Origin: Euglena gracilis | Lineage: Eukaryota | Direction: 5' to 3' | DNA length: 64,000 nucleotides | Assembly (NCBI GenBank): GCA_039621445.1 | Contig: CP154954.1 | Location: 12,704,716 to 12,768,715 of the forward strand | Part shown: piece by piece, positions 1 through 49,721 of the stretch | Layout of the letters: the number at the start of each line of letters is the position of its first letter | How positions within the stretch are numbered: the first letter of the stretch is position 1 | Made by a program: the position numbers and the translations under genes | Notes under the pieces: model-generated | The model's database searches: none | What the model saw: the letters and a program-made list of their open reading frames with translations, nothing else | What the model was told of the DNA's origin: nothing

Positions 1-312
1 TTCTCCTCGGGGTGGGTTGCCCTGCGCACTCCCAGGGCGAGAGGGTCTAGAAAATCGCATTGCTGCTGAAGAAAAAGAATCCCCAGGGCGGCGCCCACGG
101 GCCGCTTCCCTGTTGGGTCGCCAAGGGGCTTGGGGCCGGGGCAAATCCCGCTTCGCTTGCTCCCCTGCGGACGGGGTTGGCGGGGCACAGGCACCACGCT
201 GCCTGCCACCCGCCCGGACTTGGCTCGGTCTCGCTCCGGGGACGTGGCTCCCGCAGGGTTGGTGGCCCTGGGGAGGGCCGTGGGGGTGGCGCCTTGGACC
301 GGGGTGGTCGGC
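1..312 (-). CDS. Downstream continuation of the same ORF after removal of the MITE (ADHPGPRRHPHGPP...), open to the window edge
   Basis: Joining 634 to 312 gives GGG GAG|GCC GAC CAC CCC GGT CCA (GE|ADHPGP). All 104 codons from 312 to 1 are stop-free (checked by hand). Confidence 0.6.
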
Positions 313-317
313 CTCCC

Positions 318-630
318 CAGGGCGGTCCATAAGGGACGGGAAGTTTTTTTTTTTTTTTTTCGTTAAGGACCGCCCCTTAAGGACCGCCCCCCCGACCAAG
401 GATCGACCGGGACTTGAACGGGGGTCGAAAACCAAAAAGTCGAAAAACGCATTTTTTGACGCTATGGGCGGATGGGCGATGTTCCAAAAGTGCCAGGAAT
501 CACTTTTTTTCCCCGAAGTCGACCCGTTTCGGGCAAAATACGGCCACTTTTCGGTCATGGATTTTCAAAAAAATTTCTCGGCTGTGCCGGGACGGGATTT
601 TTTTTTTTTTTTGGCTTAAGGACCGCCCTG
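318..630. mobile_element. hAT-like MITE (313 bp), candidate introner
   Basis: TIRs CAGGGCGGTCC(A/T)TAAG; perfect 8-bp TSD GGCCTCCC at 310-317 and 631-638; same TIR family as 33545-33855. Confidence 0.92.
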
Positions 631-633
631 GGC

Positions 634-2233
634 CTCCCCGATCCTGGCACCTTCATGCCAGTCATGCGTCTGGCGCTCGAGGTCCGCGGGGCGCTCGACG
701 TTCTGGACTGCTGCGGCTTCTTGCCATTCTTGGATGATGCTCCGCCGCTGGGGGCCGCACGAGGCCCAGACCTGGTTCTGCAGATCTGGGTCCCATGATT
801 CGTACACGGCTTGTCCTCGTCCTGCTTCTCGTGGATCCTTCAGCACCGCCTTCCACTCCTCGTACTTGGCTCGCCGCTCGGCAGGCCACTCACTCAACGA
901 AGTGAATTTCCTCTTCTTTGTGGGGCCTTGGGAAGAGGTGTCGTCGTCGGTGGTGTCGCTGGGTGGCGGCGGGGGAGCGGTGAGGAGGAGGCGGTTGGGG
1001 GCCTCGATGGCGGGAATGGGGAGACCTTGGAGGAGGGCCAAGGAAGACGAGGAGGAGGAGGGGCCGATGGTGAGTGCGTTGAGATGCACATTCTGCACGA
1101 TGGAGGGGGCTTGTGGCGCGGAGGGAGGGAGGTAGATGGGGATGGGTACCCGGACCTCCACGGGGACGGGGACGGGCATGGGGACCCGGACCTCCACGGG
1201 GACTTGCACGGGGACCGGGACGACCCGCTCGATGACCCGATCCACGAAGACAGGCTCCCGCACGGGAACGGGGACCTGCCTCTCGACGATGACGACCCGC
1301 TCCTGGAGGACCTCACGGGTGGGTGGGGGGAGGCATGGGGTTGGGGAGGCGGAGTCCGGGTTGGGGAGAGGGGAGCCTTGGGAGGCTGTGGAGGCCGTTG
1401 GGGCGCTGGGGGATTGGGAGGCGGTGCTTGGCTGCGCTGCTACCACCTCGAGGGCGTCCGTCTCCGTCTCCATGGCCGTGGGCTGGCGACTCTCAGGCCC
1501 GCCCGGGCTCCCCGGGGGAGGGAACCTTGGCGGCGTCACCCCCGGTTCACCGCCCAGCGTAAACCCCGCTCCGGTGTGGGCCAGCCTGTCGCTTGGGGCG
1601 TCCCCCCTCGGCTCTGAGGCCGGTTCTGGCAGCACGATCACGGACCCGCCCGGGCTCCCTGGGGCTGAGATCCTTGGCGGCGTCACCCCCAGTTCACTGC
1701 CCGACGTAAACCCCGTCACGGTGTGGGCCAGTCCGTGGCTCGGGGCGTCCCCCTCGCTGTCCTCAGGCCCGCCCGGGCTCCCCGGGGGCGGGAACCTTGG
1801 CGGCGTCACCCCCGGTTCACTGCCCGGCGTAAACCCCGCCCCGGTGTGGGCCGGCCTGGTGCTGCGGCTGGTTGGGGCGTCCCCCTCCTCTTGGCTGGTT
1901 GGTAGAGGCTCGCCCGGGCTCGCCGGGGGCGGGATCCTTGGCGGCATCACCCCCGGGTCCTTGCCCTTGCTGCTCACGGATTGGGCGCACCTCACCTCTG
2001 GGGCGTCCCCCTCTCTGAGCCCTGGCCAGTGGACGGATCGGGACGCTCCTCTCGGGGCCTGCTGCTTGCTGTGGCGCACGTGGGCCTCCCGGTCGATGAT
2101 CATCACGTCCACGTCGGAGGGCTGGGGGGCGGAGGGGGAAGGGGGCGGCGTCATCTCGGCCAGCAGGTCGTCGATGCCCCCGGGGAGGGGGGGTGCGGGG
2201 TGGCCGAAGACGGAGAGTGCGGGGTGGCCGAAG

Positions 2234-2281
<48 letters not shown>

Positions 2282-2538
2282 AATTGGTATGGGTGGGGAG
2301 CTGGTTGTTGGGTCGTGTGGCGGTCGAAGTCGGCTGGTGCGTTTCGCCCCGACCGGTGGGATTGGGGCTGATCACAGGAGATCCCACCGGCCTTTGCTCC
2401 TGACGCTTCTGTCGTCCTTGGGCCTTCCTGCCGGGTGGTCGGCGGTCGTGTTGGTGGTTGGGAAGGTCGGACTGGGCGGGGGGTGGGGGCTGGAAAGAAC
2501 ACCTTTCCCGCTAGTGGCACCAATTGTGTGATGTGCAT
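634..2538 (-). CDS. Pro-rich, repeat-containing protein, upstream exon (possible non-LTR retroelement N-terminal ORF or host gene); start uncertain (ATG at 2538 or 2154; frame open to 2916)
   Basis: 766-codon open frame in GC-rich sequence. Contains ~40-aa repeats (GDAP..HTGAGFT.G.EPGVTPPR.PPPGSPGGP), a VPV-rich block, and a non-repetitive C-terminal part ending ...DWHEGARIGE. The ORF-track stop at 616-618 lies inside a MITE TIR. Confidence 0.65.
1490..2030 (-). repeat. Coding tandem repeat, ~120-135 bp unit, about 4-5 copies
   Basis: Recurrent ccttggcggcgtcacccccggttcac and ggggcgtccccct motifs. Confidence 0.85.
2236..2277. repeat. (CT)21 microsatellite
   Basis: Read directly; 42 bp, so frame-preserving. 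Confidence 0.95.
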
Positions 2539-3047
2539 GCGCCAGGAGTGTCGGGTAGAAAGGGAAGGGGAGGAAATGGGGCAGTGAGGCCAGTCCTCGG
2601 CACATTTCAGGCTCGGTCTTTCACGAAGCCTGAAGGCCAGGCCTGGACACTCATGGGGAGGCAGGCTTGCTCGTATTATGGGCTGAGGCCGGGTCTGGGC
2701 GTGGCTCCCGGGGCTGGCAGCAGACCCGGTCTCAATGCTCCAAGGCCAAGCCTGGTGGCCCCTCGGGGGCAGGTGCAGACCTTGGGGGGTCCTGAGGCTG
2801 AGCCTGAGCGCTCCCAGCAAGGGCAGGCGCAGGCTCCTCGGACCCAGTCCGGACCTGCGCACGCACCTGTTGCTGACAGGCCTGCCCTTCTGCAATCGGA
2901 GGCCCAGCCTGGGCAACCAATTGGAGGGAGGAGAGGCCTCTTTCCCACCAAGAAGGGGACCGGCCGAGGCGCGGTTTCCTGCTTGGGACCCATGGGAGAA
3001 ACAAAGGGCGGTGGAGGCCTTTTCCGGGTCTCCAACCGCCGTACACT

Positions 3048-3408
<361 letters not shown>

Positions 3409-9846: not shown

Positions 9847-10050
9847 GTCTGGTGATTGGCTGGTTTGATATCAGCGTTCTTTTGGGATGTCTTTTCCTCT
9901 TGCCTCAATCACAGCAATATATCTTGTGGTATTTCTCAGCAGGAAAATACACACACATCCGGGATACCCCTAAGTGAACACGAAAAATTATTATGTTGTT
10001 GTTGTTGTCGTTGTTGTCGTTGTGGTGGTGGTGGTGGTGGTGGTGGTGGT

Positions 10051-11674
10051 CAGGCACTTATAGCTAAAATGGCCTAAAATGGCCTTAAATGGCCTAAAAT
10101 GGCCTAAAATGGCCTAAAATGACTTTTTGACCCCCGATAGGTGGGGGTCCCTAAAATGGCCTAAAATGGCCTAAAATGGCCTAAAATGGCCTAAAATGGC
10201 CTAAAATGGAAAAAATTCTGTTGCACAACATTTTTTTTTGTGAACAACTGATGCCATTCAGGTAATTACTTTCGGTGTCTTTTGTTACAGCTGGTTGCGG
10301 AATATGTATCGAAATCAAAATAACTGCCAATTTTCTCAATTGTAATTGGTCAATTATATCTAAATAATTGCCAATTTTCTCCAAACAATTGTCAGTTTTC
10401 TCAAAACAATTGCCAATTTTCTGAAAACAATTGCCGTTTTTCTCAAGAATGAATGCCCTCATGACAGTTGTGTTTGGAAGACAAGTTTCTGTTTCATAAT
10501 CGTCTCTTTCTCTTACATCCATGTCTGATCCGAATAATGCTCGTCATGGGTACAATGTGTTGGCCAGGGGTTTGCCTAAAATGTGGGCCCTCCTGACGGG
10601 GCTGTCGGATGACTTTCTTTGACTGTCCACCTCAATGGACACTTCTTTTTTCTGATTATGAGACATTGCAATTGCTTTTGAGAAGATTGCAGTCATACTT
10701 TGAGACAGTGGCAAAATTTTTGAGACAGGTGGCAATTCACTGTGAGTATCAGTATCAGTCCCCATGGTCCCCAACCTTCTTTTGGTATTTGAATTTTGAA
10801 GGTTTGGACACCTGGATTTTTTTTCTTACTCCCATCTTTTTTGGTGCAACGATGTCTGTTTTGCAAATAATGAAACAGTGCAAATTTGGAAGCATGTGGA
10901 AAAAGACAGGGAAAGAAAGAAAGACGAAAGATGTTGGAAAAATCTCAATTGAAAGATGTGCATGCTCATTTGTTTTGTTACGTACCAGGGATTCCTTCAA
11001 ATCACGAACCAGCACAATTTTGGGGATTTTCCAAAACCACAAATTATCAAGCCGAGTGATCAAGTGACCCAAGCAACCACAAACAATTATGAATGAGATT
11101 ATCTCCTGTTTATGAACCTTTTTAGTATTAAGTTTCCCCAAAGGGGAAAACAAACACGGAGAAGAGGAATTGCTCTCAGCTTTGCTCAGCTCTCAAATTG
11201 AATTTCACCATGCAACAGCATCATCTTTCAGAAAAATGGCTTCTTTTTGCGAAATCCTGCAAAATGGCGTAGATTTCACAAAATACAAAAAACTGGGCGC
11301 TTTTTTTTTGGTTGCGCAAATAAAAACTTTTAATATTTGTCAAACGTTTTTTATGAAAATTTTTCATTGCCATAATTTCTTACTGTTTAGAATTCCTCTA
11401 TGGGTATGAATTAAGATTTGTTGATCATGGTTCTGATACATTGTTCATGAATTTTGCATGCTTTTTTGTATGTATATTTCTTACTGAATAAGAGAAGGTT
11501 TGCACACGTTATGATACAGTTTTTTGGGACAAAAATGACGAAGAATTATGATTTTCAGAATCCCCACCTATACCTTAAAATGGCCTAAAATGGCCTTAAA
11601 TGGCCTAAAATGGCCTAAAATGGCCTAAAATGGCCTAAAATGGGGAAATTTTTGGGCTTGACTATAGGTGCCTG
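10051..11674. mobile_element. Non-autonomous hAT-like element (1624 bp) inserted in a (GGT)n tract
   Basis: TIR CAGGCAC(T/C)TATAG; flanks GTGGTGGT on both sides (within microsatellite); subterminal (AAAATGGCCT)n arrays at 10066-10208 and 11577-11642. Confidence 0.82.
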
Positions 11675-11721
11675 GTGGTGGTGGTGGTGGTGGTGGTGTT
11701 GTTGTTTGGAGTTGGAGTTGG

Positions 11722-12270: not shown

Positions 12271-13608
12271 ACACGTTGGCTCCATAAAATAAATATGGAT
12301 TATGATTTTATTTTATTTTTGTGTTTTTACTCAGTAAAAAATGGTAAAATGACCAAACATGGAAAAATTTACAATAAAATGCTGAATAATTATATATGGT
12401 GAGGAAAAAGGGTAACACATTACTGTCTAAAATTGATATGAAATTTTGAAAGCAGCTCCGCATTGTGCAAGCTCTGCAACAAAGTGGCCAACAGTCGCTA
12501 AAAGTGGCCAGAAATGGTAACTGGTCAAAAAATAACCCTCAAACGGTCAAAAACAGCCAAAGTGATGAAATTAGTCAAAAAATGGACAAAAATGCTAGGT
12601 GTTTGCCACCTCCCACCCCCCTCCTTTCATGCAAACCTGGCCCCCTAAAGTTAGGCCCCCTATTTTTAAGTTTTCTGGCTGATTTTGCGACTAACCCAAT
12701 AATTTTCTAACTATACAAGTTTTGGACCAAACCTAAGGCCCCTTTTCCCCTCTCCGTTCCACAATGAGTTCCGGCACTGCATGAACGTTCCACAAGGGAA
12801 TCGAGGTTATTTTTTGTTATTTTGTTGTAAATTTGCCGAAATTTACAAAATTTATAAAATGTGTACAAAATTTGGCGATCTCTGGGCCTTTACAGGTTTT
12901 CCCCCAATTTCTGCTGGGAAATAATTACTAACTAGAAAAACTCCGCATCCCAGACCAGGTTTTACCTGAGACCAAAATTTTCAGCAATTTTTGCCGTTTT
13001 TGGCTGAATACCATATTTCCAAAACCAGCCTGTTCCCAAAACCCCAAAAGTCATGTTTTTGATCCTTTTTGGTGGAAAGATGTGAATTACGACTCAAATT
13101 TTCCATCAATTTTGCAAAATGACCAAAGTTGTGAAATTTTTCTATGTCCCCTCCAGCAGAAGTGCATTAATTCTCAAAACCGAATTTACTCATTTTTTGA
13201 CCAACTTTTCCGCAATTCCCGCAATTTTTCGGCCATTGTTCCCGCAATTTATCCGAAGGCCTCCGATATCAATTGCCCACCCCTGCGATCGAGCAAAATT
13301 TCAAAAAATAAGACCCCCCAAATATGACCCCTGGTGCGAAGCGTCAGGGACGGCGAAATTTTTCCTGTTAAAAATGTCGCAGCGCCAGAGGAAAAAAATT
13401 CGCTTCTTTTGAAACCATTCGAAAAAAACACACACCAAAAACCCATTTTCATTTGGGCAGACAGTTGGTGTGACTTTTCCAGTTGGGGGACCTGGTGGAC
13501 CCGGACCCCGGACTTCCCAGGAGAGAGGGGTCCAGCTAGTGGCTTCTCGATTGGCTAGTTTTCGGACCCCCCGGGATCCCAATGCAAAGCCTGGCTCTCA
13601 TAATGCAA

Positions 13609-13611
<3 letters not shown>

Positions 13612-13660
<49 letters not shown>
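13612..13660. repeat. (GT)n microsatellite (homologous tracts 49661-49717 and 63366-63491)
   Basis: Read directly; similar flanks in the three copies. Confidence 0.95.
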
Positions 13661-13664
<4 letters not shown>

Positions 13665-16600
13665 CGTTTATGTTTGTGTGTGTCTGTGTGTTTTTGGTTT
13701 TTGATTACTGGTTTTAATTTTCGTTGCAAATTGTCCCACCGGCTTTTCACTGGCACTCGATCCGGCTGCACTGGTCTTGAACCTGTACACCTGCAATCTA
13801 ACCAAGGTTTTGAAAATTCATTTTTGTTCCGCCCTGCTTGCTGGAGTATAGTAAAACAACATCTATGCAGCTTTCGTGGCACATCCCCTTTCCAACCCAT
13901 CGTGGGACCATGGCAACCTGCTGAAGCGTCCCCCGCTGGCTGCATCGTTTGTTGAACACTGGTTGCAGTCTATTTCATTTGAGTTGGATTGGACATTGCA
14001 ATGGTCCATCTGAATGAGGATCTTACCTGCAGCTAACCGCCCCCCTAATGTTCAACACCCCCAACTTTTTATTTTGGTGGGATTTCAAGATCCTCAGGGC
14101 GGGCTGTACATTTTTGGGGGGGACGTCACATTTATCTGGGTGACCTATACGAAAATTGTTGTGCATCCCTTTTTCCCCCAAAAAATGCATACATCCACCC
14201 CCCCAAATTTTTTTGGTTTTCTCCTGAATGGCACCATTGGCAGGCTTTGTGTCTGGGGGGGTTATACTTGGGGGTTTTCAATATTTTTGTGTATGACTTC
14301 CTGGGTTTCTGGTTCAAGGAGTGGAGTTGGCTTTCAGCAGTTGAAAGTAGTAAGTTTGACTGATTGAGCCTGCGTCCATAAACCAATCGCCCCCGGCCGA
14401 CATTTAAGTATACAGCTTCCCACGCTTTCTCCTGCTTCGGGCCCAGGATTCTTCAGTTTTGCTGAAATACTGAATTGGCGAGTTAATTTCGAAGTCAAGC
14501 CTGCTGGGTCACGAGGGTTATGTGCGGATTTTGCGCACTTGTCGTAGTTTTTGAATTTGGTAAGTGGAATCCAGACCGAAGCTCGGTATGCTTCGGAGTA
14601 AAAGAAATTCACTAGAAGCCCCGAAAACTCTGTTCCCAAAGAAGACTCTCCCCATTCCTTTGGGAGTCGCTGCCCGAAAGCCTTGTAGCAAGCTTGCTAC
14701 CATTGAGGTGTGGAAGTGGCGCAAACTGGGAATCCTGCCAGTAGTTGCCTCCACGAGCTGTTTACCATGGCTGCCTTTGATTTTGCCCCTTTCTGGTTTT
14801 TCCATGCCTAACATGAGCCACTCTTTGGCTTAACTATAGGTGCTTGCCCGGCTGCGTGAAATCCCCTGCAGATGCCCGTCAGCTGGTTTCACAGGGTTTG
14901 TTTATGTCCAGTGGTTTTCATCAAACGAGTTCACTGAACCACGATGATATTTTCTCTCGTCCCCACTTTTGATGTTGGCCCATCCAACCAAAGGAAGTAG
15001 TGAGGTTCGGGTGCTCTGCTACATTTTTCTTCCTGCGGCGGCTGTGCTACTTCCCCCAGTGGCGCATTCCTCTTTATCAGATACCATTTCAGTGAATGCA
15101 TGCAAATGCATTGCAAAGGTTTGCGGGAAAGCACCTGTGAAATGACTGGGCACCACTGGGCCCTATTGTTTGTGACTGGCTTTGATGACACTCATGGGGG
15201 GGGGTCCGTGCATAGATCCACCGAGTGACCCCGGGGGCACTTCTTCCCAGGCCCAAACCCACCCACGACCCCCCCCCCCGGGGTGGTCAACCACCCACCT
15301 ACCCACCCAAAATCTGGCCAAGATCGGCCGAAGAAGCCGAAAATTTTTTCCTCCCCGCCATGGCGCACCGCCCCCCCCCCAGGTCACACAAGTGATCTAC
15401 CAAGTGTCACACAAGGTAATCTAAGGTTCCATGTCGAATGTGGCCACTTTTGGCCACGTTTAGACCTTTCTTCTCCCTTTTTGTCCGTGTCTGGCCGTCT
15501 TTGGCTATTTGTTCCTATGCATGTTTTTGAGTATTTTCGGCCATTTTTTGGCCAATGTTCTTTTGGCCAGGTTTGACCTTTTTTTGGCACTGGGATGTCT
15601 GTGTGTGGACTGGTTGTGAGTGAGCGTAACTGGGCATGACTGGGCGTGATTGAGCGCGACTGGATGGCCACAGGTGCTTGGTGGGCGGGATTAATGCGAA
15701 AACATATTCTTTTTTTGCTTTTGTGTAATCGCCGTGAACTTGCATAATTCCGGACCATATTCACGGATGCAAAATGAAGTTTCCACAAAACAAGGAAGGG
15801 GAGCGACGGTGGTAGGCGGGCGAGGACGTGGGGATGGTCTGGCTGGAGACGTGCTGGATGGTCGCCCTGCCTCCATCCGTTGGAAACAAAATGAGGCAAA
15901 AAAGAACTAAGCCCTGAAGAAAAAAAACCCGGGGGGGTCGGAAGTTTGGGTCTGGGAGCTGCTCCGAATGAGGTGGATCAAGACGTCATTCTCACAAGCC
16001 ATGCAGCGTGGTTCGCAAACATTTGGTGCCTCCACAGGCAAATTTTCCCCACACCCTCTGACACCACTACGCTCCCCACCCCCACACCCCTCACTGACAG
16101 GCATGGTAGCTCGAATTTTTTCCGAGGGAAATGCCAAATAGTTGAAATTTTGGATGTGCACGGAGGGCTGGACACCCTTTTGGGGTGCTCAAGAATACAC
16201 TTCCTCGCGTTCACACACGTTTCGAGGTGTTCTAGTGCACATGAAAAGTGGAACCATCCCACAGGCCTCAAAATGGGGTATGCCCGCAAACAGGAAGAAG
16301 ACGCAGAACAAATTATTGCTGCCAAATGATTGCAAAAAAGTCAGTGGCTGATGAAACAATGCCGCTCAAAAGTGAGAATATAGTGAAGGTTGCTCTGTGC
16401 CTGCTCCCAGATGCTGCTTGTATTTTTTTCTTCTTCTAATTACCTATTATTGTATTTCTGTACTTCAAAAATTGCGATATCGCAAGGATTTCTGAACAGA
16501 GGTCTTTCTTAAGGACCTGCTGGGGGTTCCCTGACTGGAAAACGGCTATTCATCAAAACCTGGTCAATTAGGGCACCAGACGAGGCCATCCGAGGCAGAG

Positions 16601-17681
16601 GGTGGCAATCTGCCCCCGGGTGACACATGTCAAAAACAGAAACGGGCTTGCCCAGACCCCAGGGATGCAATGCCACCAACCTACGCCCTCAGTGTTTAGC
16701 CTATCTCTCAGCATTTCAGCATTGAAATGCCAGGGGCACCTACCGCGGACGTTATTGTGTGCTTGGGGAGCGCACGTGTGCCACCGGTTGAATGACTCTC
16801 TTTTCCAACCTGCCTTGGAGCTAACTCCAGGCTATATCGGACCTCCTCCCCCCCCCAACCCTGACCGCTTTGCGGGCAGCAGCGTGCTGGTTTGACCTCG
16901 CTAACCCATCAAATGCGCTGGAAGTAGCCGGCCGTTGGACGCTTCACTGGCGAATTTCCGCGATACCAGTGATTTTTTTTGGGGGAGAATGGCAAAGTTT
17001 GTTTTGTTCCTGTTCCAATAATCAGGAAGCGGTTAGTGCTGATGAACCGGGCATTTCCCTGTGCATGGGAAAAAATTGCAGGAAATAAAGAGTTTTCAGA
17101 AAATCTCGGAAATACGGAAAGACCCCCCAAATATGACCCCTGGTGCGAAGCGTCAGGGACGGCGAAATTTTTCCTGTTAAAAAATTGGGGGTTTTACCCC
17201 AACGATCCCTCATGTCTTGCTGGGATGTCGCAGCGCTAGAGGAAAAAATTTCGCTTCTTTTGAAACCTGCCATGGAGGTGAGGGGTGGGGGTCCGGACAC
17301 CCCCTCCCAACATATGGGGATCGCTACCGGAAACTTTTTATTTGACCCCAAAAAGCTGCCAAAAATTGGAACAAAACCATTCGAAAAAAAAACACACCAA
17401 AAACCCATTTCCATTTGGGCAGACAGTTGGTGTGATTTTTCCAGTTGGGGGACCTGGTGGACCCGGACCCCGGACTTCCCAGGTGAGAGGGGTCCAGCTA
17501 GTGGCTTCTCGATTGGCTAGTTTTCGGACCCCCCGGGATCCCAATGCAAAGCCTGGCTCTCATAATGCAATAGGTGTGTGTGTGTGTTTTGGGGGGGGGG
17601 GACGTCAAATTTATCTGGGTGACCTATACCAAAATTGTTGTGCATCCCTTTTTTCCCCAAAAAATGCATACATCCACCCAC

Positions 17682-18085
17682 CAGGCTTTTGCTTAAGGGA
17701 TTGCAGTACCCCCCCCCGGGGGGGGGCTGGACTGCAGCTAGTCCAAATTTGGCTAGTGGGTTTTCTAGCAGACCCCCCCCCGGGGGGGGGTCTGCTAGCA
17801 GGGCTAGCCAGTGGAAAATTTTTTTCCAGTGACCGGCGCGAAGCGCCGAAAAAATTTTTTGGGACCCCCAAAAATGGCCAAAAATGCCCGTTTTTGGCCA
17901 TTTTTGGGAATTTTTGGAACAAAATCAGCCAAAAACCTGTTAAAAAATTTTTTTCCAGTCCGGGGGACCCCCGGACCCCCCCCCCCCCGGGGGGGGAGGG
18001 GGGGGTCTAGCTAGTCCACTTTTTCCAGTGTCTAGCCGATTGGCTAGCCAGTACCCCCCCCCCGGGGTCCTTAAGCAAAAGCCTG
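17682..18085. mobile_element. hAT-like MITE (404 bp), present only in tandem unit 2
   Basis: Perfect 17-bp TIR CAGGCTTTTGCTTAAGG; TSD CCACCCAC at 17674-17681 and 18086-18093; empty site in unit 3 (~21555). Confidence 0.96.
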
Positions 18086-21000
18086 CCACCCACCCAAATT
18101 TTTTTGGCTTTCTCCTGAATGGCACCATTGGCAGGCTTTGTGTTTGGGGGGGTTATACTTGGGGGTTTTCAATATTTTTGTGTATGACTTCCTGAGTTTC
18201 TGGTTCAAGGAGTGGAGTTGGCTTTCAGCAGTTGAAAGTAGTAAGTTTGACTGATTGAGCCTGCGTCCATAAACCAATCGCCCCCGGCCGACATTTAAGT
18301 ATACAGCTTCCCACGCTTTCTCCTGCTTCGGGCCCAGGATTCTTCAGTTTTGCTGAAATACTGAATTGGCGAGTTAATTTCGAGGTCAAGCCTGCTGGGT
18401 CACGAGGGTTATGTGCGGATTTTGCGCACTTGTCGTAGTTTTTGAATTTGGTAAGTGGAATCCAGACCGAAGCTCGGTATGCTTCGGAGTAAAAGAAATT
18501 CACTAGAAGCCCCGAAAACTCTGTTCCCAAAGAAGACTCTCCCCATTCCTTTGGGAGTCGCTGCCCGAAAGCCTTGTAGCAAGCTTGCTACCATTGAGGT
18601 GTGGAAGTGGCGCAAACTGGGAATCCTGCCAGTAGTTGCCTCCACGAGCTGTTTACCATGGCTGCCTTTGATTTTGCCTCTTTCTGGTTTTTCCATGCCT
18701 AACATGAGCCACTCTTTGGCTTAACTATAGGTGCTTGCCCGGCTGCGTGAAGTCCCCTGCAGATGCCCGTCAGCTGGTTTCACAGGGTTTGTTTAAGTCC
18801 AGTGGTTTTCATCAAACGAGTTCACCGAACCACGATGATATTTTCTCTCGTCCCCACTTTTGACGTTGGCCCATCCAACCAAAGGAAGTAGTGAGGTTCG
18901 GGTGCTCTGCTACATTTTTCTTCCTGCGGCGGCTGTGCTACTTCCCCCAGTGGCGCATTCCTCTTTATCAGATACCATTTCAGTGAATGCATGCAAATGC
19001 ATTGCAAAGGTTTGCGGGAAAGCACCTGTGAAATGACTGGGTACCACTGGGCCCTATTGTTTGTGACTGGCTTTGATGACACTCATGGGGGGGGGTCCGT
19101 GCATAGATCCACCGAGTGACCCCGGGGGCACTTCTTCCCAGGCCCAAACCCACCCACGACCCCCCCCCCCCCGGGGTGGTCAACCACCCACCTACCCACC
19201 CAAAATCTGGCCAAGATCGGCCGAAGAAGCCGAAATTTTTTTCCTCCCCGCCATGGCGCACCGCCCCCCCCTCCCAGGTCACACAAGTGTTCTACCAAGT
19301 GTCACACAAGGTAATCTAAGGTTCCATGTCGAATGTGGCCACTTTTGGCCACGTTTAGACCTTTCTTCTCCCTTTTTGTCCGTGTCTGGCCGTCTTTGGC
19401 TATTTGTTCCTATGCATGTTTTTGAGTATTTTCGGCCATTTTTTGGCCAATGTTCTTTTGGCCAGGTTTGACCTTTTTTTGGCACTGGGATGTCTGTGTG
19501 TGGACTGGTTGTGAGTGAGCGTGACTGGGCATGACTGGGCGTGATTGAGCGCGACTGGATGGCCACAGGTGCTTGGTGGGCGGGATCAATGCGAAAACAT
19601 ATTCTTTTTTTGCTTTTGTGTAATCGCCGTGAACTTGCATAATTCCGGACCATATTCACGGATGCAAAATGAAGTTTCCACAAAACAAGGAAGGGGAGCG
19701 ACGGTGGTAGGCGGGCGAGGACGTGGGGATGGTCTGGCTGGAGACGTGCTGGATGGTCGCCCTGCCTCCATCCGTTGGAAACAAAATGAGGCAAAAAAGA
19801 ACTAAGCCCTGAAAAAAAAAAACCCGGGGGGGTCGGAAGTTTGGGTCTGGGAGCTGCTCCGAATGAGGTGGATCAAGACGTCATTCTCACAAGCCACGCA
19901 GCGTGGTTCGCAAACATTTGGTGCCTCCACAGGCAAATTTTCCCCACACCCTCTGACACCACTACGCTCCCCACCCCCCCACCCCTCACTGACAGGCATG
20001 GTAGCTCGAATTTTTTCCGAGGGAAATGCCAAATAGTTGAAATTTTGGATGTGCACGGAGGGCTGGACACCCTTTTGGGGTGCTCAAGAATACACTTCCT
20101 CGCGTTCACACACGTTTCGAGGTGTTCTAGTGCACATGAAAAGTGGAACCATCCCACAGGCCTCAAAATGGGGTATGCCCGCAAACAGGAAGAAGACGCA
20201 GAACAAATTATTGCTGCCAAATGATTGCAAAAAAGTGAAACAATGCCGCTCAAAAGTGAGAATATAGTGAAGGTTGCTCTGTGCCTGCTCCCAGATGCTG
20301 CTTGTATTTTTTTCTTCTTCTAATTACCTATTATTGTATTTCTGTACTTCAAAAATTGCGATATCGCAAGGATTTCTGAACAGAGGTCTTTCTTAAGGAC
20401 CTGCTGGGGGTTCCCTGACTGGAAAACGGCTATTCATCAAAACCTGGTCAATTAGGGCACCAGACGAGGCCATCCGAGGCAGAGGGTGGCAATCTGCCCC
20501 CGGGTGACACATGTCAAAAACAGAAACGGGCTTGCCCAGACCCCAGGGATGCAATGCCACCAACCTACGCCCTCAATTTTTAGCCTATCTCTCAGCATTT
20601 CAGCATTGAAATGCCAGGGGCACCTACCGCGGACGTTATTGTGTGCTTGGGGAGCGCACGTGTGCCACCGGTTGAATGACTCTCTTTCCCAACCTGCCTT
20701 GGAGCTAACTCCAGGCTATATTGGACCTCCCCCCCCCCAACCCTGACCGCTTTGCGGGCAGCAGCGTGCTGGTTTGACCTCGCTAACCCATCAAATGCGC
20801 TGGAGGGAGCCGGCCGTTGCAGCTTCACTGGCGAATTTCCGCGATACCAGTGATTTTTTTGGGGGAGAATGGCAAAGTTTGTTTTGTTCCTGTTCCAATA
20901 ATCAGGAAGCGGTTAGTGCTGATGAACCGGGCATTTCCCTGTGCATGGGAAAAAATTGCAGGAAATAAAGCGCTTTTCAGAAAATCTCGGAAATACGGAA

Positions 21001-24000
21001 AGACCCCCCAAATATGACCCCTGGTGCGAAGCGTCAGGGACGGCGAAATTTTTCCTGTTAAAAAATTGGGGGTTTTACCCCAACGATCCCTCATGTCTTG
21101 CTGGGATGTCGCAGCGCTAGAGGAAAAAATTTCGCTTCTTTTGAAACCTGCCATGGAGGTGAGGGGTGGGGGTCCGGACACCCCCTCCCAACATATGGGG
21201 ATCGCTACCGGAAACTTTTTATTTGACCCCAAAAAGCTGCCAAAAATTGGAACAAAACCATTCGAAAAAAAAACACACCAAAAACCCATTTCCATTTGGG
21301 CAGACAGTTGGTGTGATTTTTCCAGTTGGGGGACCTGGTGGACCCGGACCCCGGACTTCCCAGGTGAGAGGGGTCCAGCTAGTGGCTTCTCGATTGGCTA
21401 GTTTTCGGACCCCCCGGGATCCCAATGCAAAGCCTGGCTCTCATAATGCAATAGGTGTGTGTGTGTGTTTTGGGGGGGGGGACGTCAAATTTATCTGGGT
21501 GACCTATATAAAAATTGTTGTGCATCCCTTTTTTCCCCCAAAAAATGCATACATCCACCCACCCAAATTTTTTTGGCTTTCTCCTGAATGCCACCATTGG
21601 CAGGCTTTGTGTTTGGGGGGGGTTATACTTGGGGGTTTTCAATATTTTTGTGTATGACTTCCTGAGTTTCTGGGTCAAGGAGTGGAGTTGGCTTTCAGCA
21701 GTTGAAAGTAGTAAGTTTGACTGATTGAGCCTGCGTCCATAAACCAATCGCCCCCGGCCGACAATTTAAGTATACAGCTTCCCACGCTTTCTCCCGCTTC
21801 GGGCCCAGGATTCTGCTTCAAGCCCATGTTTTGTTGAAATACTGAATTTGCGAATTAATTTCGAAGTCAAGCCTGCTGGGTCACGAGGGTTATGTGCGGA
21901 TTTTGCGCACTTGTCGTAGTTTTTGAATTTGGTAAGTGGAATCCAGACCGAAGCTCGGTATGCTTCGGAGTAAAAGAAATTCACTAGAAGCCCCGAAAAC
22001 TCTGTTCCCAAAGAAGACTCTCCCCATTCCTTTGGGAGTCGCTGCCCGAAAGCCTTGTAGCAAGCTTGCTACCATTGAGGTGTGGAAGTGGCGCAAACTG
22101 GGAATCCTGCCAGTAGTTGCCTCCACGAGCTGTTTACCATGGCTGCCTTTGATTTTGCCTCTTTCTGGTTTTTCTATGCCTAACATGAGCCACTCTTTGG
22201 CTTAACTATAGGTGCTTGCCCGTCTGCGTGAAGTCCCCTGCAGATGCCCGTCAGCTGGTTTCACAGGGTTTGTTTAAGTCCAGTGGTTTTCATCAAACGA
22301 GTTCACCGAAACACGATGATATTTTCTCTCGTCCCCACTTTTGACGTTGGCCCATCCAACCAAAGGAAGTAGTGAGGTTCGGGTGCTCTGCTACATTTTT
22401 CTTCCTGCGGCGGCTGTGCTACTTCCCCCAGTGGCGCATTCCTCTTTATCAGATACCATTTCAGTGAATGCATGCATGCATTGCAAAGGTTTGCGGGAAA
22501 GCACCTGTGAAATGACTGGGCACCACTGGGCCCTATTGTTTGTGACTGGCTTTGATGACACTCATGGGGGGGGTCCGTGCATAGATCCACCGAGTGACCC
22601 CGGGGGCACTTCTTCCCAGGCCCAAACCCCCCCACGCCCCCCCCCCCCCCGGGGTGGTCAACCACCCACCTACCCACCCAAAATCTGGCCAAGATCGGCC
22701 GAAGAAGCCGAAAAATTTTTCCTCCCTGCCATGGCGCACCCCCCCCCAGGTCACACAAGTGTTCTACCAAGTGTCACACAAGGTAATCTAAGGTTCCATG
22801 TCGAATGTGGCCACTTTTGGCCACGTTTAGACCTTTCTTCTCCCTTTTTGTCCGTGTCTGGCCGTCTTTGGCTACTTGTTCCTATGCATGTTTTTGAGTA
22901 TTTTCGGCCATTTTTTGGCCAATGTTCTTTTGGCCAGTTTTGACCTTTTTTTGGCACTGGGATGTCTGTGTGTGGACTGGTTGTGAGTGAGCGTGACTGG
23001 GCATGACTGGGCGTGATTGAGCGCGACTGGATGGCCACAGGTGCTTGGTGGGCGGGATCAATGCGAAAACATATTCTTTTTTTGCTTTTGTGTAATCGCC
23101 GTGAATTTGCATAATTCCGGACCATATTCACGGATGCAAAATGAAGTTTCCACAAAACAAGGAAGGGGAGCGACGGTGGTAGGCGGGCGAGGACGTGGGG
23201 ATGGTCTGGCTGGAGACGTGCTGGATGGTCGCCCTGCCTCCTTCCGTTGGAAACAAAATGAGGCAAAAAAGAACTAAGCCCTGAAAAAAAAAAACCCAGG
23301 GGGGGTCGGAAGTTTGGGTCTGGGAGCTGCTCCGAATGAGGTGGATCAAGACGTCATTCTCACAAGCCACGCAGCGTGGTTGCAAACATTTGGTGCCTCC
23401 ACAGGCAAATTTTCCCCACACCCTCTGACACCACTACGCTCCCCACCCCCACACCCCTCACTGACAGGCATGGTAGCTCGAATTTTTTCCGAGGGAAATG
23501 CCAAATAGTTGAAATTTCGGATGTGCACGGAGGGCTGGACACCCTTTTGGGGTGCTCAAGAATACACTTCCTCGCGTTCACACACGTTTCGAGGTGTTCT
23601 AGTGCACGTGAAAAGTGGAACCATCCCACAGGCCTCAAAATGGGGTATGCCCGCAAACAGGAAGAAGACGCAGAACAAATTATTGCTGCCAAATGATTGC
23701 AAAAAAGTCAGTGGCTGATGAAACAATGCCGCTCAAAAGTGAGAATATAGTGAAGGTTGCTCTGTGCCTGCTCCCAGATGCTGCTTGTATTTTTTTCTTA
23801 TTCTAATTACCTATTATTGTATTTCTGTACTTCAAAAATTGCGATATCGCAAGGATTTCTGAACAGAGGTCTTTCTTAAGGACCTGCTGGGTGTTCCCTG
23901 ACTGGAAAACGGCTATTCATCAAAACCTGGTCAATTAGGGCACCAGACGAGGCCATCCGAGGCAGAGGGTGGCAATCTGCCCCCGGGTGACACATGTCAA

Positions 24001-25129
24001 AAACAGAAACGGGCTTGCCCAGACCCCAGGGATGCAATGCCACCAACCTACGCCCTCAATGTTTAGCCTATCTCTCAGCATTTCAGCATTGAAATGCTAG
24101 GGGCACCTACCGCGGACGTTATTGTGTGCTTGGGGAGCGCACGTGTGCCACCGGTTGAATGACTCCCTTCCCAACCTGCCTCGGAGCTAACTCCAGGCTA
24201 TATCGGACCTCCTCCCCCCCCCCCAACCCTGACCGCTTTGCGGGCAGCAGCGTGCTGGTTTGACCTCGCTAACCCATCAAATGTGCTGGAGGGAGCCGGC
24301 CGTTGGACGCTTCACTGGCGAATTTCCGCGATACCAGTGATTTTTTGGGGGGAGAATGGCAAAGTTTGTTTTGTTCCTGTTCCAATAATCAGGAAGCGGT
24401 TAGTGCTGATGAACCGGGCATTTCCCTGTGCATGGGAAAAAATTGCAGGAAATAAAGCGCTTTTCAGAAAATCTCGGGAATTCAAACAGAGCCGCCATGG
24501 AGGCCTTTTAAACCCCCGGGGGACATGCACCTCCCCTGAACGTGGAAACATTCCGTCGACCATGGTGCCTGCCATAGCAGAAGCACAAAAAAGTTCCCAT
24601 AGAGATGGCATTTTGCCCCCCTGGCACAATCTGGGTGTGCCGCACTATACCCCTGTGACATGCCCCGCCCTTGGCGAATGGCAGTGCTGGGGGGGAATCA
24701 CTGTTTTTTTTTGATGTATCTGAAGTTCATTTTCGAATAATTTCTGTTTTTTTTTTACACTCTCCTCTTTTTTTTCTGCTTTTTCAAGCTGGCAGATCCA
24801 GGGCTGGCAAAGTACAAGCCCCAGAGTGGCACTTGCTACGTATTGCCAATCAAAAAAGAAATTAAAAAATAACTGTAAAAAATTCAACAAAAAATAAGAA
24901 TAGGGACAAACAAATAATAAAAATAACTCAAATAAATAACTGACATATGAAATGAGAAAGGCATCATAGAAACTGTAAACAAAAATGACATAAATCGAAC
25001 GAATTAAAGCAATGATAGAAATACATAAACAAAATAGCATCTGGGAGCATGATTTTTTTGAGCTGCATCTTTGAAGTTCTGGGCACCCGTCGTTTTCGCT
25101 TTCAGGCGTTGTCCAGCACACTTGGAAAT

Positions 25130-25413
25130 CAGGGGTTTTTTTAGTCGTGGACCCCCGGGGGGGGAGGGGGGGGTGAGGGTGGGTGGGTCCGGCCGGGTCC
25201 GGCCCCGGGGGGGGGGGGTCCCCCCGGAGGGGGGTGGAATATACTTTTCGGCGCCGCAGGCGCCGAAAAAATGCTATTTTTAGCACTTTTCGCTATTTTT
25301 CGGCCATTTTTTGTGGGTCCCCCGGGACCCCCCCCCCCCGGGGGGGCCCCCAGGGGGGGGGGGGGGGGGGGGGGACCCCCCCTCCCCCGCCCCCGGTCTT
25401 AAAAAAACCCCTG
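25130..25413. mobile_element. hAT-like MITE (284 bp)
   Basis: 14-bp TIR CAGGGGTTTTTTTA; TSD TTGGAAAT at 25122-25129 and 25414-25421; empty site at ~56041 in copy B. Confidence 0.94.
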
Positions 25414-33252: not shown

Positions 33253-33995
33253 AAGTTTGGGGGACATGGCGTAAATAGCAAACGGGTAAACGGTAAAAGC
33301 AAATAAGGCGGACATGGCGTTTTTGTTGCAAATGGATTTTTGGTTTCAACAAGTTTGGCGGACATGGCGAAAACAGCAAATGGGTAAACGGTAAAAGCAA
33401 AATCAGGCGGACATGGCGTTTTTGTGGCCAATGGATGAATGGTTTTCAACAAGATTGGCAGACATGGCATTATACAGCGAACGGGTAAACGCTAAATGCA
33501 AAATAAGGAGGCAAATGGATAAATAGTTTTCAACAAGTTTGGCGCAGGGCGGTCCTTAAGGAAATAAAAAAAAACAATATTCTGCCGTCCCACACTCAAT
33601 AAAAAATAAAGGAAAATGGGCAAAGAAATTTGGAATTCTTCGGCGACAACAGGTCGATATCAGGGGGAAAAACTGATTATTGGCATCCTGTGACCATCGA
33701 CCAATCCACCCAGATCATCCAAAAGTGTGTTTTTTTTGGACTTTTTAATTTTGGACCCCGTTCAAGTCCTGCCCTTGGTCGGCCCTTTGGCCGAAAGGGG
33801 GGCGGTGCTTAAGAAAATTAAAAAAAAACTTTCCTGTCCCTTAAAGACTGCCCTGGTTTGGCGGACATGGCGTAAATGGCAAACGGTTAAATTGTAAAAA
33901 TAAAAATTAGGAGGACATGGTGTTTTTGTTGCAAATAGATTTTTGGTTTTCAACAAGTTTGACATGGTGTATACAGTAAACGGGTAAACGGTAAA
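33253..33995. repeat. ~100-bp minisatellite (about 4.5 units) interrupted by a MITE
   Basis: aagtttggcggacatggcg-like unit starts at 33253, 33351, 33451, 33535 and 33955. Confidence 0.85.
33545..33855. mobile_element. hAT-like MITE (311 bp), same family as 318-630
   Basis: TIR CAGGGCGGTCCTTAAGG / CAGGGCAGTCTTTAAGG; TSD GTTTGGCG at 33537-33544 and 33856-33863; neighbouring minisatellite units provide empty sites. Confidence 0.93.
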
Positions 33996-48510: not shown

Positions 48511-49656
48511 TACCAACAATCCCTCATTTCTATCTGGGATGTCTTTGGGCGTAGCTCCGGAGGATTTTTTTCGCATCTTTTGAAACTACCAATGGGGGAT
48601 GTTTGCGGTCCGGACACCCCCTCCCAACATCTGGGGGGGGGTAGCCCACCACGTCACCCCCACGGGGGGGGGGGTCCAGATTCCCCCACCATCTAGCTCA
48701 AAACTGAAAGGCTTTACATCTATACCTGCCTGGGGGTCCCTTCAGCTGGCCACTAGAAAAGGTTCCCGGGGCTACCGAATTCGTGACAAAAGAATGATTA
48801 AGTTAAACAATTCTATCATTTTCTGGAAACGGACCCCTGGGTGTTATTTTTGGGGTGGTGAAGTGTTTGTACAGGGGTGTTCCAGACTACTTCTCCCGTC
48901 TTCAGACTGTTGGGGTCTGGGACCCCCAGGAACCAAAAAAATTTTTGTCCTCCTGCGCTTTCCGCTGGAAATACACACAAACACACAGGAAAACACATTT
49001 TTTGGGCCTCCTTCAAGTCCGAAAATTTTCCGTCCTTTTTTTCCCCCAGGAGAAAGTCCAACCCCCCCCTCCGGGGGTGTCCAGTACCCCCCCCCCTGCC
49101 GCTTGCCCAGGTGGAAATAGGTTTTTGGGGTGGTTTTTTTTTGGCTGGTTTTGTTCAAAAAATGGAAAACGGCCATTTTTAGCAGGTCTTGGCCGGTCAA
49201 TTTTTTTCTGGTGCTTCCCGCTGGTCACTTGTAAAAAAAACACCAGCTAGCCTGCAAGCGGAACCCCCTCGGGGGGGTCCAAGCCAAATTTGGGCTAGCT
49301 GCAGTCGACCACCTCCCAGGGTTGTACTGTGAACCCTCATGAAGAAGCCTGATCACCAGGAATCGGGTTGCATTGTACAAACGGCGTCCAGGCTGGTCGA
49401 CGTTTTCTCAACACGCATCAACCTCCCATCCCCCTGTCCAACGAACATGAATGCTCGTCTCGCTAAATTTTTTTTGTCTCTGACCAGGATTGGGGTCGGC
49501 CAGGTTATGAAGAGAGCAGCCAGTTGGGATGAGTTTTCCAGTTGGGGGACCTGGGGGACCCGGACACCGGACCTCCCAGCAGAGAGGTGTCCAGCTAGTG
49601 ACTTTTCTAGTGGCTAGTTTTCGGACCCCAAGGCAGAGCCTGGATCTGATAATGCA

Positions 49657-49721
<65 letters not shown>

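What the first reader, a model, noticed from the sequence alone, without database searches (positions are those of the whole stretch)
310..638. MITE inside an ORF that can be removed scarlessly as an intron (candidate introner)
Seen: a 313-bp CAG...CTG MITE with TSD GGCCTCCC sits in a long minus-strand ORF and supplies its apparent stop. On the coding strand the site reads GGGAG|GCC-CAGGGCGG...CCGCCCTG-GGGAG|GCC. Excising 633..313 (321 nt) restores the frame for 104 further stop-free codons and rebuilds RIGEADHPGP. That intron would have CAG at +4..+6, CTG at -8..-6, base-paired ends and a purine starting the next exon, and it also has GC...AG borders. Established: euglenid non-conventional introns have paired ends with CAG at +4..6 and CTG at -8..-6, and intermediate forms with partly canonical borders exist. 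Inference: this insertion is spliced out and is an intron being born from a transposon.
Basis: partly seen in the sequence, partly recalled or inferred. Interest (0 to 1): 0.9.

Follow-up and report, generated by a model that had tools for sequence, protein, structure and literature searches.

The report
Small transposon inside a repeated gene
A 313-base hAT-like miniature transposon really does sit inside a conserved reading frame and could in principle be cut out of the RNA, but the frame belongs to a very high-copy repeat family, no read shows splicing, and the host organism remains unidentified.

Summary
A 313-bp MITE lies at 318-630, with 11/11 CAGGGCGGTCC inverted ends and a perfect 8-bp duplication GGCCTCCC. 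It sits in a minus-strand ORF and supplies its stop. Removing 321 nt reopens the frame to the window edge.

The ORF is real coding sequence. Environmental relatives read straight through the site: P0001, and L001 with the identical RIGEADHPGP.

Frame restoration is automatic for any clean insertion. The ORF is also not an ordinary host gene. Its 3.1 kb is very high-copy in DNA runs. A contig in X1 appears to hold the MITE-free form. A longer relative carries a weak GIY-YIG hit, suggesting a retroelement.

No RNA or DNA read shows the proposed junction. The one raw RNA run gave no reads on the flanks.

The cis-signals do match the experimentally defined Euglena nonconventional-intron code, and also a dinoflagellate-style AG|GC duplication. 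The host could not be identified, and the MITE-to-intron idea is already in print.

Best reading: a recent nested insertion that kills one repeat copy. Splicing is possible but untested.

Side finding: the site lies inside a conserved 2A-like W..G.R.GEA.[NH]PGP motif.

The parts
318..630 (.). 313-bp non-autonomous hAT-like transposon (MITE), 49% GC, with internal T17 and T15 runs
   Evidence: 5 such CAG..CTG elements with 8-bp duplications in the window against 0 in 20 shuffles
310..317 (.). left copy of the 8-bp target-site duplication GGCCTCCC
631..638 (.). right copy of the 8-bp target-site duplication GGCCTCCC
318..333 (+). left terminal inverted repeat, CAGGGCGGTCC plus ATAAG
   Evidence: 11/11, then 1 mismatch, then 4 matches with the right end
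615..630 (-). right terminal inverted repeat
363..390 (.). two tandem 14-bp subterminal repeats (TTAAGGACCGCCCC). They are complementary to the left end and give a local hairpin.
616..618 (-). in-frame stop supplied by the MITE (reading ...RIGEA-QGGP-stop)
631..2154 (-). upstream part of the interrupted coding sequence, counted from the ATG at 2154. The stop-to-stop frame reaches 3054 but crosses a (CT)21 microsatellite at 2236-2277.
   Evidence: homologues; 9 of 16 variants synonymous in 639-1500
1..312 (-). downstream continuation of the same coding sequence, 104 codons, running off the window edge
   Evidence: aligned with P0001, L001 and L002, P0069
631..666 (-). first part of the conserved 2A-like motif, HDWHEGARIGEA
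295..309 (-). second part of the 2A-like motif, DHPGP, cut off from the first part by the MITE
33545..33855 (-). second, diverged copy of the same MITE family in a non-coding tandem repeat; duplication GTTTGGCG at 33537-33544 and 33856-33863
3048..3389 (.). 98-bp tandem repeat (3048-3249) and a CT-rich microsatellite (3253-3389) at the upstream edge of the GC-rich repeat unit

Best explanation
This is a recent cut-and-paste insertion of a non-autonomous hAT-type transposon (MITE).

**Shown.**
- The element has CAGG...CCTG ends and an 8-bp target duplication.
- It sits in the coding sequence of one copy of a very high-copy, GC-rich repeat family.
- As DNA it breaks that copy. It splits a conserved 2A-like motif between GEA and DHPGP and supplies a stop four codons in.
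- The restored frame follows automatically from a clean insertion.

**Inferred.**
- The family's long ORF is probably the N-terminal part of a retroelement protein.
- This copy is simply a dead, nested-transposon copy, and nothing requires the MITE to be removed.

**Open.** If the host is a euglenid, the transcript would carry every known cis-signal for non-conventional intron removal. That step is untested.
For: **The element.** Anatomy of MITE, inverted ends and duplication.

**The same kind of element is common in non-coding DNA.**
- Five CAGG..CCTG elements with perfect 8-bp duplications lie in 64 kb, against 0 in 20 shuffles.
- A sixth element, the second family copy, lies in a tandem repeat.
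- In RNA run X24, 28 of the 34 laid reads lay only partly on the stretch. Loose ends begin exactly at 317/318 and run into unlike flanks, so other copies are present unspliced in RNA.

**The ORF is real and was continuous.**
- P0001 (E 6.6e-45) and P0002 were found.
- P0001 aligns across the site.
- L001 reads RIGEADHPGP and is collinear at DNA level without the MITE.
- P0069 reads RLGEADHPGP.
- 57 profile hits in all.
- 9 of 16 variants in 639-1500 are synonymous in this frame and in the antisense + frame that shares its third positions, against 1-4 in the other four frames.

**The ORF region is a repeat.**
- 17 runs hold at least half of the sampled words, among them a run of only 2 million letters.
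- X2 laid 4644 contigs, with summed word depth of about 1e4 to 7e5 per bin over the whole 3.1 kb, the non-ORF part included.
- At positions such as 57, 61, 254, 784, 787, 907, 1441 and 1445, all depth in X2 and X1 carries another letter than the window. The window copy is therefore a private variant of a family.

**A MITE-free form in X1.**
- One 329-letter contig of depth 34.6 lies on 631-827 with 197 letters.
- A piece of the same depth ends at 309.
- Bin depths fit 34.6x101/104 and 34.6x98/104.
- This is my inference.

**Retroelement hint.** P0069 continues into a weak GIY-YIG match (Pfam E 0.1, 13.4 bits, below the cut-off) and one C.C motif at residue 1080. The unit also abuts a microsatellite.

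**No splice evidence.** No joint across the MITE in the 4 of 4 runs laid.
Against: - **Cis-signals fit splicing.** The insertion fulfils every cis-requirement shown experimentally for Euglena non-conventional splicing. It also has AG|GC inside the duplication, as in some dinoflagellate introner-like elements. RNA removal is therefore plausible in the right host.
- **The copy is otherwise intact.** It has 812 open codons upstream, stop to stop, and 104 downstream. This fits a still-used copy as well as a very recent insertion.
- **The RNA test was weak.** About 5% of one run was read, with zero cover of the flanks.
- **The MITE-free contig is not proven.** It is inferred from depths and lengths, not listed by the tool as a joint. 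The tool reported that it dropped one joint row for X1 at repeats.
- **The retroelement reading is weak.** It rests on a sub-threshold domain hit in one relative.
Confidence: 0.6

Rival explanations
1. Newborn euglenid-type non-conventional intron. The host is a euglenid. The pre-mRNA pairs the CAGG...CCTG ends. The unknown non-spliceosomal machinery then cuts 3 nt before CAG and 5 nt after CTG, a total equal to the 8-bp duplication. This restores ...RIGEA|DHPGP... exactly.
For: - **All four cis-rules are met.** These are CAG/CTG, a 3-nt and a 5-nt spacer, a purine (G) at the acceptor exon start, and 12 of 13 paired positions next to the motifs. They match the code defined by knock-ins and synthetic introns (PMC12501133, passages) and the +7/-9 G/C preference (PMC4770533, passages).
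- **Shared termini.** All 5 elements found by the strict scan begin CAGG and end CCTG with 8-bp duplications. The sixth, the second family copy at 33545-33855 (9/11 inverted ends, below the scan threshold), has the same ends and an 8-bp duplication.
- **Direct repeats at intron borders.** 84.4% of Euglena agilis introns have short direct repeats at their borders.
- **Circumstantial fit to a euglenid.**
  - The genome is repeat-rich and microsatellite-rich.
  - Contig totals of 1.4-2.3 billion letters in several runs compare with a 2.14-2.34 Gb E. gracilis genome.
  - No member of the ORF family carries an informative name or an NCBI or UniRef source in 20 of 20 clusters looked up.
Against: - The host is not identified. 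Spliced-leader motifs recalled from memory were not found in the window or the first six loci, L001-L006. This is weak negative evidence.
- CAG...CTG ends with an 8-bp duplication are the generic hAT signature, so any such MITE in any eukaryote would fit by construction.
- There is no junction read and no back-joined (circular) read in 4 runs.
- RNA reads show other copies unspliced.
- In the minimum-energy fold the two ends pair locally rather than with each other, z -1.98.
Confidence: 0.25
2. Spliceosomal introner of the dinoflagellate kind. Both splice sites are recruited from the duplication (GGGAG|GCC), giving a GC...AG intron flanked by G|...|G.
For: - The duplication contains AG|GC.
- Polarella glacialis has introner-like classes with 8-nt duplications. 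It also has classes that take both sites from an AGGH duplication, and GC 5' sites are common there (bioRxiv 10.1101/2020.10.14.339549, passages).
- A pyrimidine-rich stretch lies about 20-35 nt before the AG on the coding strand.
Against: - No dinoflagellate spliced-leader relic in 64 kb.
- No junction reads.
- The 5' site GAG|GCCCAG is a poor match for ordinary U1 pairing (my reading).
- The element's own ends carry no splice site.
- Copies lie mostly in non-coding DNA.
Confidence: 0.08
3. Artefact or chance: the direct and inverted repeats are coincidental or an assembly error, and the ORF is a GC-composition artefact.
For: - The region is 60-67% GC, and long ORFs occur on both strands, for example 411 aa on the + strand.
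Against: - 0 such elements in 20 shuffles.
- A second family copy has its own duplication.
- MITE-end reads are seen in independent runs, with loose ends exactly at 317/318.
- Homologues are collinear over both flanks.
Confidence: 0.02

Closest known systems
Euglenid non-conventional introns (Euglena gracilis, E. agilis)
   Same: CAG(G) at +4..+7 and (C)CTG at -9..-6, 3-nt and 5-nt spacers, paired ends, purine at the acceptor exon start, direct repeats at the borders. A MITE origin has already been proposed.
   Different: Removal from RNA is not shown here and the host is unknown. This is a full MITE with a perfect 8-bp duplication, sitting in a high-copy repeat ORF rather than a housekeeping gene.
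Dinoflagellate introner-like elements with 8-nt duplications (Polarella glacialis classes 3, 6, 8, 10; class 14 with AGGH)
   Same: A DNA transposon with inverted ends and a duplication that can supply splice sites. AG|GC is present in the duplication.
   Different: The 'GHN6' pattern of classes 6, 8 and 10 is not met, because the duplication starts GG on the coding strand. The element's end is CTG, not AG. No dinoflagellate signature was found.
Introners of Micromonas, Aureococcus and other eukaryotes
   Same: MITE-like elements that create introns on insertion, using the duplication for one splice site.
   Different: Those families lie predominantly in genes and are seen spliced. Of the two copies of this family in the window, one is in a tandem repeat. 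The four other CAGG..CCTG elements lie in stretches where no gene was identified. None is shown spliced.
hAT-superfamily MITEs (Ac/Ds-like)
   Same: 8-bp target duplication and short inverted ends beginning CAG (the hAT signature is recalled, not tested against a library).
   Different: No transposase or autonomous partner was seen in the window, so superfamily assignment rests on the duplication length and end sequence only.
2A / StopGo peptides (class A D(V/I)ExNPGP; class B of Rao et al. 2025)
   Same: The host ORF family has an invariant ...NPGP or HPGP preceded by a conserved W about 15 residues from the end. N/H alternation occurs as in class B.
   Different: The core is G-E-A-x, not D-V/I-E-x or EEGIE-P. 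There is no proline before N/H. W sits at position 15 rather than about 16. Activity is untested.

Membership tests
hAT-type MITE | 8-bp target-site duplication | tested here: met
   GGCCTCCC 8/8; second copy GTTTGGCG 8/8
hAT-type MITE | short terminal inverted repeats, small size, no coding capacity | tested here: met
   11/11 inverted ends, 313 bp, no long ORF of its own
hAT-type MITE | related autonomous element with a hAT transposase | tested here: inconclusive
   no transposase domain among 150 window ORFs scanned; no whole genome is held
Euglenid non-conventional intron | CAG after a 3-nt spacer, CTG before a 5-nt spacer, paired flanks, purine at the acceptor exon start | tested here: met
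   compared with PMC12501133 and PMC4770533
Euglenid non-conventional intron | absent from mature mRNA / released as circular RNA | tested here: inconclusive
   no skip or back joint in 4 runs, but no RNA cover of the flanks either
Euglenid non-conventional intron | host is a euglenid | tested here: inconclusive
   no genome held; spliced-leader motifs absent; Rfam nothing; only circumstantial fit
Introner (transposon-made spliceosomal intron) | usable 5' and 3' splice sites created on insertion | tested here: inconclusive
   GC...AG inside the duplication; usable only where GC 5' sites with weak consensus are accepted
Introner (transposon-made spliceosomal intron) | family copies enriched in genes and spliced | tested here: not met
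   of 2 family copies in the window, 1 is in a tandem repeat; RNA reads show other copies unspliced; genome-wide test not possible
2A/StopGo peptide (host ORF, side finding) | C-terminal NPGP or HPGP with a conserved upstream register | tested here: met
   W..G.R.GEA.[NH]PG. in 34 of 57 profile hits, 33 of them ending in P and 1 (P0045) in A; the others do not carry the strict pattern; G, R, G, E, A, N, P, G, P invariant in 12 of 12
2A/StopGo peptide (host ORF, side finding) | class A core D(V/I)Ex, or class B core EEGIE plus P before N/H | tested here: not met
   core is GEAx, and x was never P in the 34, compared
2A/StopGo peptide (host ORF, side finding) | peptide-bond skipping in translation | not testable with these tools
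   needs a reporter assay
Penelope-like retroelement with N-terminal GIY-YIG | GIY-YIG nuclease followed by a CxC linker and a reverse transcriptase | tested here: inconclusive
   P0069: GIY-YIG E 0.1, 13.4 bits against cut-off 22.6; one C.C at residue 1080; no reverse transcriptase in the 1151 residues; no PDB match; structure prediction not available

The most novel reading that the evidence does not exclude
The host is a euglenid, and its abundant hAT-type MITEs (CAGG...CCTG ends, 8-bp duplications) are the living source of non-conventional introns. The experimentally found 3-nt and 5-nt spacers would then be the two halves of the 8-bp target duplication. Any such insertion would be born splice-ready. 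This copy would be removed from RNA, repairing a 2A-like recoding motif in a retroelement ORF. My searches found the MITE-origin idea in print, but found no paper linking it to hAT or to the duplication length (0 papers; supplements could not be seen).
Probability: 0.2. Interest if true: 0.75.

Novelty: new member of a known kind. Interest (0 to 1): 0.38.

Why it matters
If the host is a euglenid and the element is removed from RNA, this would be a concrete, datable case of a transposon becoming a non-conventional intron. It would also give a simple mechanical reason for the 3+5-nt spacer rule. The origin of these introns is still called unclear (PMC12501133).

As it stands, the locus is an ordinary nested transposon insertion in a repeat. 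Its value is as a well-defined test case. It has perfect ends, a known ancestral sequence, and private SNPs that would tell this copy from its paralogues.

The side finding may be the more useful lead. It is a strongly conserved, undescribed-looking 2A-like motif shared by a high-copy ORF family and by environmental and virus-labelled contigs.

Tried and rejected
**Host identification. All routes failed.**
- No genome is held.
- Rfam gave nothing at gathering and only sub-threshold hairpin hits.
- No tRNAs.
- Pfam on 150 window ORFs gave only Zip and CRAL_TRIO at E 4e-4 to 7e-4, and nothing transposon-like.
- Spliced-leader motifs of dinoflagellates and Euglena, recalled from memory, were absent from the window and the first six loci, L001-L006.
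- Cluster look-ups of 20 relatives gave only ENA, JGI or Logan sources. The only names were 'hypothetical protein', in 3 clusters.

**Search for a same-species joined form at protein level.**
- P0004, near lengths: no hit.
- P0004, longer lengths: only P0069, at 58% identity.

**Introns in relatives' contigs.** L005 shows a frameshift rather than an intron, and L004 was uninformative.

**MITE end pattern in viral contigs.** 3 matches, each of 20 nt or less, so chance.

**Paper searches for sequence strings.**
- Inverted-end strings: only primers.
- Motif strings: only irrelevant 'arigea' hits.

**L009 upstream part.** By eye it looks like a polymerase with a GDD, but it has no Pfam or PDB support, so I do not claim it.

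**Habitat.** The run labels of X19 and X20 (small shares or coded names) are not used as evidence of habitat.

Full report
**1. The observation**

- GGCCTCCC occurs at 310-317 and at 631-638.
- Between them lies a 313-bp element, 49% GC. Its ends are CAGGGCGGTCC and the reverse complement (11/11, then one mismatch, then four matches).
- On the minus strand the site reads GGGAG|GCC-CAG...CTG-GGGAG|GCC.
- The stop of the ORF 616..3054(-) lies inside the element at 616-618, four codons in.
- Deleting 321 nt in any of nine registers gives the same product...HDWHEGARIGEADHPGP..., open for 104 more codons to the edge of the window. Deleting only the 313 nt shifts the frame.

The structure is not chance. 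A scan for CAG...CTG elements with at least 10/11 inverted ends and at least 7/8 duplications found five in the window. It found none in 20 shuffles or in the reversed sequence. A second, diverged copy of this family lies at 33545-33855 in a non-coding tandem repeat, with its own 8-bp duplication.

**2. What the restored frame means**

313+8 = 321 is a multiple of three. Removing any clean insertion with one duplication copy regenerates the pre-insertion sequence. The restored frame therefore shows that the ORF was intact before the insertion. It is not evidence for splicing.

**3. Is the ORF real?**

Yes.
- Two relatives were found by word search: P0001, E 6.6e-45, 59% identity, and P0002.
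- A profile search found 57 relatives, 23 of them at E<=1e-10.
- P0001 aligns without a break across the insertion site and on through the 104 downstream codons.
- L001, a metagenome contig, reads exactly RIGEADHPGP. It is collinear with both flanks at DNA level (74% and 68% identity) with no element between.
- P0069 reads RLGEADHPGP.
- Of 16 single-letter variants seen in public runs within 639-1500, 9 are synonymous in this frame. The antisense + frame that shares its third positions also scores 9, and the other four frames score 1-4.
- No Pfam family matches the window's ORF.

**4. What kind of gene is it?**

It is not an ordinary single-copy host gene.

*Copy number.*
- Seventeen runs hold at least half of the sampled words of 1-3100. 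One of them has only 2 million letters of contigs.
- In X2, 4644 contigs lay on the 3.1 kb. Summed word depth was about 1e4 to 7e5 per bin, over the non-ORF part as well.
- At many positions (57, 61, 254, 784, 787, 907, 1441, 1445 and others) all depth in X2 and X1 carries a letter other than the window's. The window holds a private variant of a large family.

*Domains.*
- Relatives have variable N-termini: OTU protease in P0042, P0021 and P0060, and DnaJ in P0035.
- Some carry CCCH-like cysteine/histidine patterns downstream (by eye).
- The longest relative, P0069 (1151 aa), runs on into a weak GIY-YIG match (Pfam E 0.1, 13.4 bits, below the 22.6 cut-off). It has one C.C motif at residue 1080.

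*Retroelement reading.* Penelope-like elements with an N-terminal GIY-YIG nuclease have a CxC linker before the reverse transcriptase and prefer microsatellites (PMC8557442, abstract and passages). The GC-rich unit here abuts a CT microsatellite and a 98-bp tandem repeat. I therefore read the ORF as probably the N-terminal part of a retroelement protein. This is inference.

**5. RNA and DNA reads**

I laid one raw RNA run (X24, about 5% read), one metatranscriptome contig set (X19) and two presumed DNA contig sets (X2, X1) on 1-3100.
- No joint from 309-317 to 631-639 was listed in any of the four runs, and no back joint.
- X24 gave 34 reads, nearly all on 313-624. Of these, 28 lay only partly on the stretch. 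Loose ends start exactly at 317/318 and run into other sequences. So other copies of the MITE are present, unspliced, in RNA.
- X24 gave zero reads on 1-312 and 625-936. The ORF family is close to silent in that sample.
- X19 covers most of 1-3100 but not 209-832.
- In X1, a 329-letter contig of depth 34.6 lies on 631-827 with 197 letters. A piece of the same depth ends at 309, judged from the 'from_end' values at 254, 272 and 274. The bin depths 33.6 and 32.6 equal 34.6x101/104 and 34.6x98/104.

I infer that this X1 contig joins 309 to 631, which is the MITE-free form, with 8 differences from the window. The tool did not list the joint. It said that it dropped one joint row of X1 at repeats. 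If the inference is right, MITE-free paralogues or alleles exist, and any spliced-looking read must be tied to this copy by its private letters.

**6. Could it be removed from RNA?**

In the right host, yes.

*Euglena.* Knock-in experiments define the non-conventional splicing code (PMC12501133, passages):
- CAG and CTG motifs;
- exactly 3 nt before CAG and about 5 nt after CTG;
- a purine at the start of the acceptor exon;
- complementary stretches next to the motifs.

Synthetic 50-bp introns built to these rules are spliced. Earlier comparative work gives the same picture, with G/C at +7/-9 in 31 of 55 introns (PMC4770533, passages). The element here meets all of these. The 3+5 spacers add up to the 8-bp duplication. 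The strict scan's five elements and the second family copy at 33545 all have CAGG...CCTG ends and 8-bp duplications.

*Dinoflagellates.* The duplication contains AG|GC. In Polarella some introner-like elements have 8-nt duplications. Some take both splice sites from an AGGH duplication (bioRxiv 10.1101/2020.10.14.339549, passages).

*Against giving this much weight.*
- CAG...CTG ends with an 8-bp duplication are the general hAT signature (recalled). Any such MITE anywhere would fit by construction.
- In the minimum-energy fold each end pairs locally rather than with the other end, z -1.98.

**7. The host**

I could not name it. Section Tried and rejected lists the attempts. The circumstantial points are:
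- The genome is rich in repeats and microsatellites.
- Contig totals of 1.4-2.3 billion letters in several runs compare with the 2.14-2.34 Gb, 58.8%-repeat genome of E. gracilis (PMC11252322, passages).
- No annotated protein of this very abundant family carries an NCBI or UniRef source, in 20 of 20 clusters looked up. This argues against a well-annotated host.

None of this is proof. I put a euglenid host at roughly 40%.

**8. What is known already**
- Transposon-made introns (introners) are established in several lineages (listing; PMC11282704, passages).
- A MITE origin of euglenid non-conventional introns, with duplication-like repeats at their borders, is in print (PMC11282704; PMC12501133 discussion).
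- I found no paper linking it to hAT elements or to the duplication length (0 papers). Supplements were closed, and subscription papers are not searched.

**9. Verdict**

- **Observation:** confirmed.
- **Best reading (0.6):** a recent hAT-type MITE insertion nested in, and disabling, one copy of a high-copy, probably retroelement ORF.
- **Main rival (0.25):** the same insertion is also a newborn non-conventional intron in a euglenid.
- **Lesser rival (0.08):** a spliceosomal GC-AG introner.
- **Interest:** moderate. The idea is known, the decisive RNA evidence is missing, and the target is a repeat. The locus is nonetheless a clean test case.

**10. Side finding**

The insertion lies inside the most conserved stretch of the family, (S/T)H(D/N)W.EG.R.GEA.(N/H)PGP.
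- G, R, G, E, A, N, P, G, P are invariant in 12 of 12 aligned members.
- The strict pattern occurs in 34 of 57 hits. Of these, 33 end in P and one (P0045) in A; 32 have N before PG and 2 have H.
- The window, L001 and P0069 have H.
- It also occurs in IMG/VR-labelled contigs: L009 SHDWKDDERIGEASNPGP, and L007 degenerate.

It recalls 2A/StopGo peptides:
- Class A consensus is D(V/I)ExNPGP (abstract listing).
- Class B has a conserved W at about position 16, EEGIE, P before N/H, and N or H before PGP (PMC12338488, passages).

The motif fits neither core. Its strings were not found in the searchable literature.

Noticed in passing
window 631-666 and 295-309 (minus strand); P0001-P0059, P0069; L001-L009: The interrupted ORF family shares a very strongly conserved 2A-like motif, H(D/N)W.EG.R.GEA.(N/H)PGP. 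It occurs in 34 of 57 profile hits, one of which ends PGA. It fits neither the class A nor the described class B core. It also occurs in IMG/VR-labelled contigs (L009, L007). N-termini before it vary (OTU protease, DnaJ). The conserved part after it reads ..NHAP..PAGE.AKG..PGP.P..SR(P/A)G(S/T)AQ. It may be a new variant of ribosome-skipping peptide.
   Followed up: partly
window 1-3400: The GC-rich (60-67%) first 3.4 kb is a very high-copy repeat unit in several public runs. It ends at a 98-bp tandem repeat and a CT microsatellite. A longer relative (P0069) has a sub-threshold GIY-YIG match and a C.C motif, which suggests a Penelope-like retroelement with an N-terminal nuclease.
   Followed up: partly
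window 10051-11674, 17682-18085, 25130-25413, 57775-58305: Four further elements of other families have CAGG...CCTG ends (10-11 of 11 paired) and perfect 8-bp duplications. This end type dominates the inverted-repeat elements of the window.
   Followed up: partly
window about 13400-25000: Three tandem copies of a unit of about 3.5-3.9 kb at 96-100% identity, with a more distant fourth copy near 49500-55300. No protein family or RNA family was matched.
   Followed up: no
window 10030-10230, 11550-11680, 51280-51640, 52550-52630: Arrays of a 10-bp unit (CCTAAAATGG-like) sit at the inner ends of the 1.6-kb CAGG..CCTG element and elsewhere.
   Followed up: no
window 318-390: The left end of the MITE can fold back on two subterminal 14-bp repeats across a T17 run. 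In the minimum-energy RNA fold each end therefore forms its own hairpin instead of pairing with the other end.
   Followed up: partly
L006 1290-1326: One metagenome relative ends its ORF one codon after NPGP. An A-run follows directly, as if the product stopped right at the skip site or the copy were a retroposed, truncated transcript.
   Followed up: no
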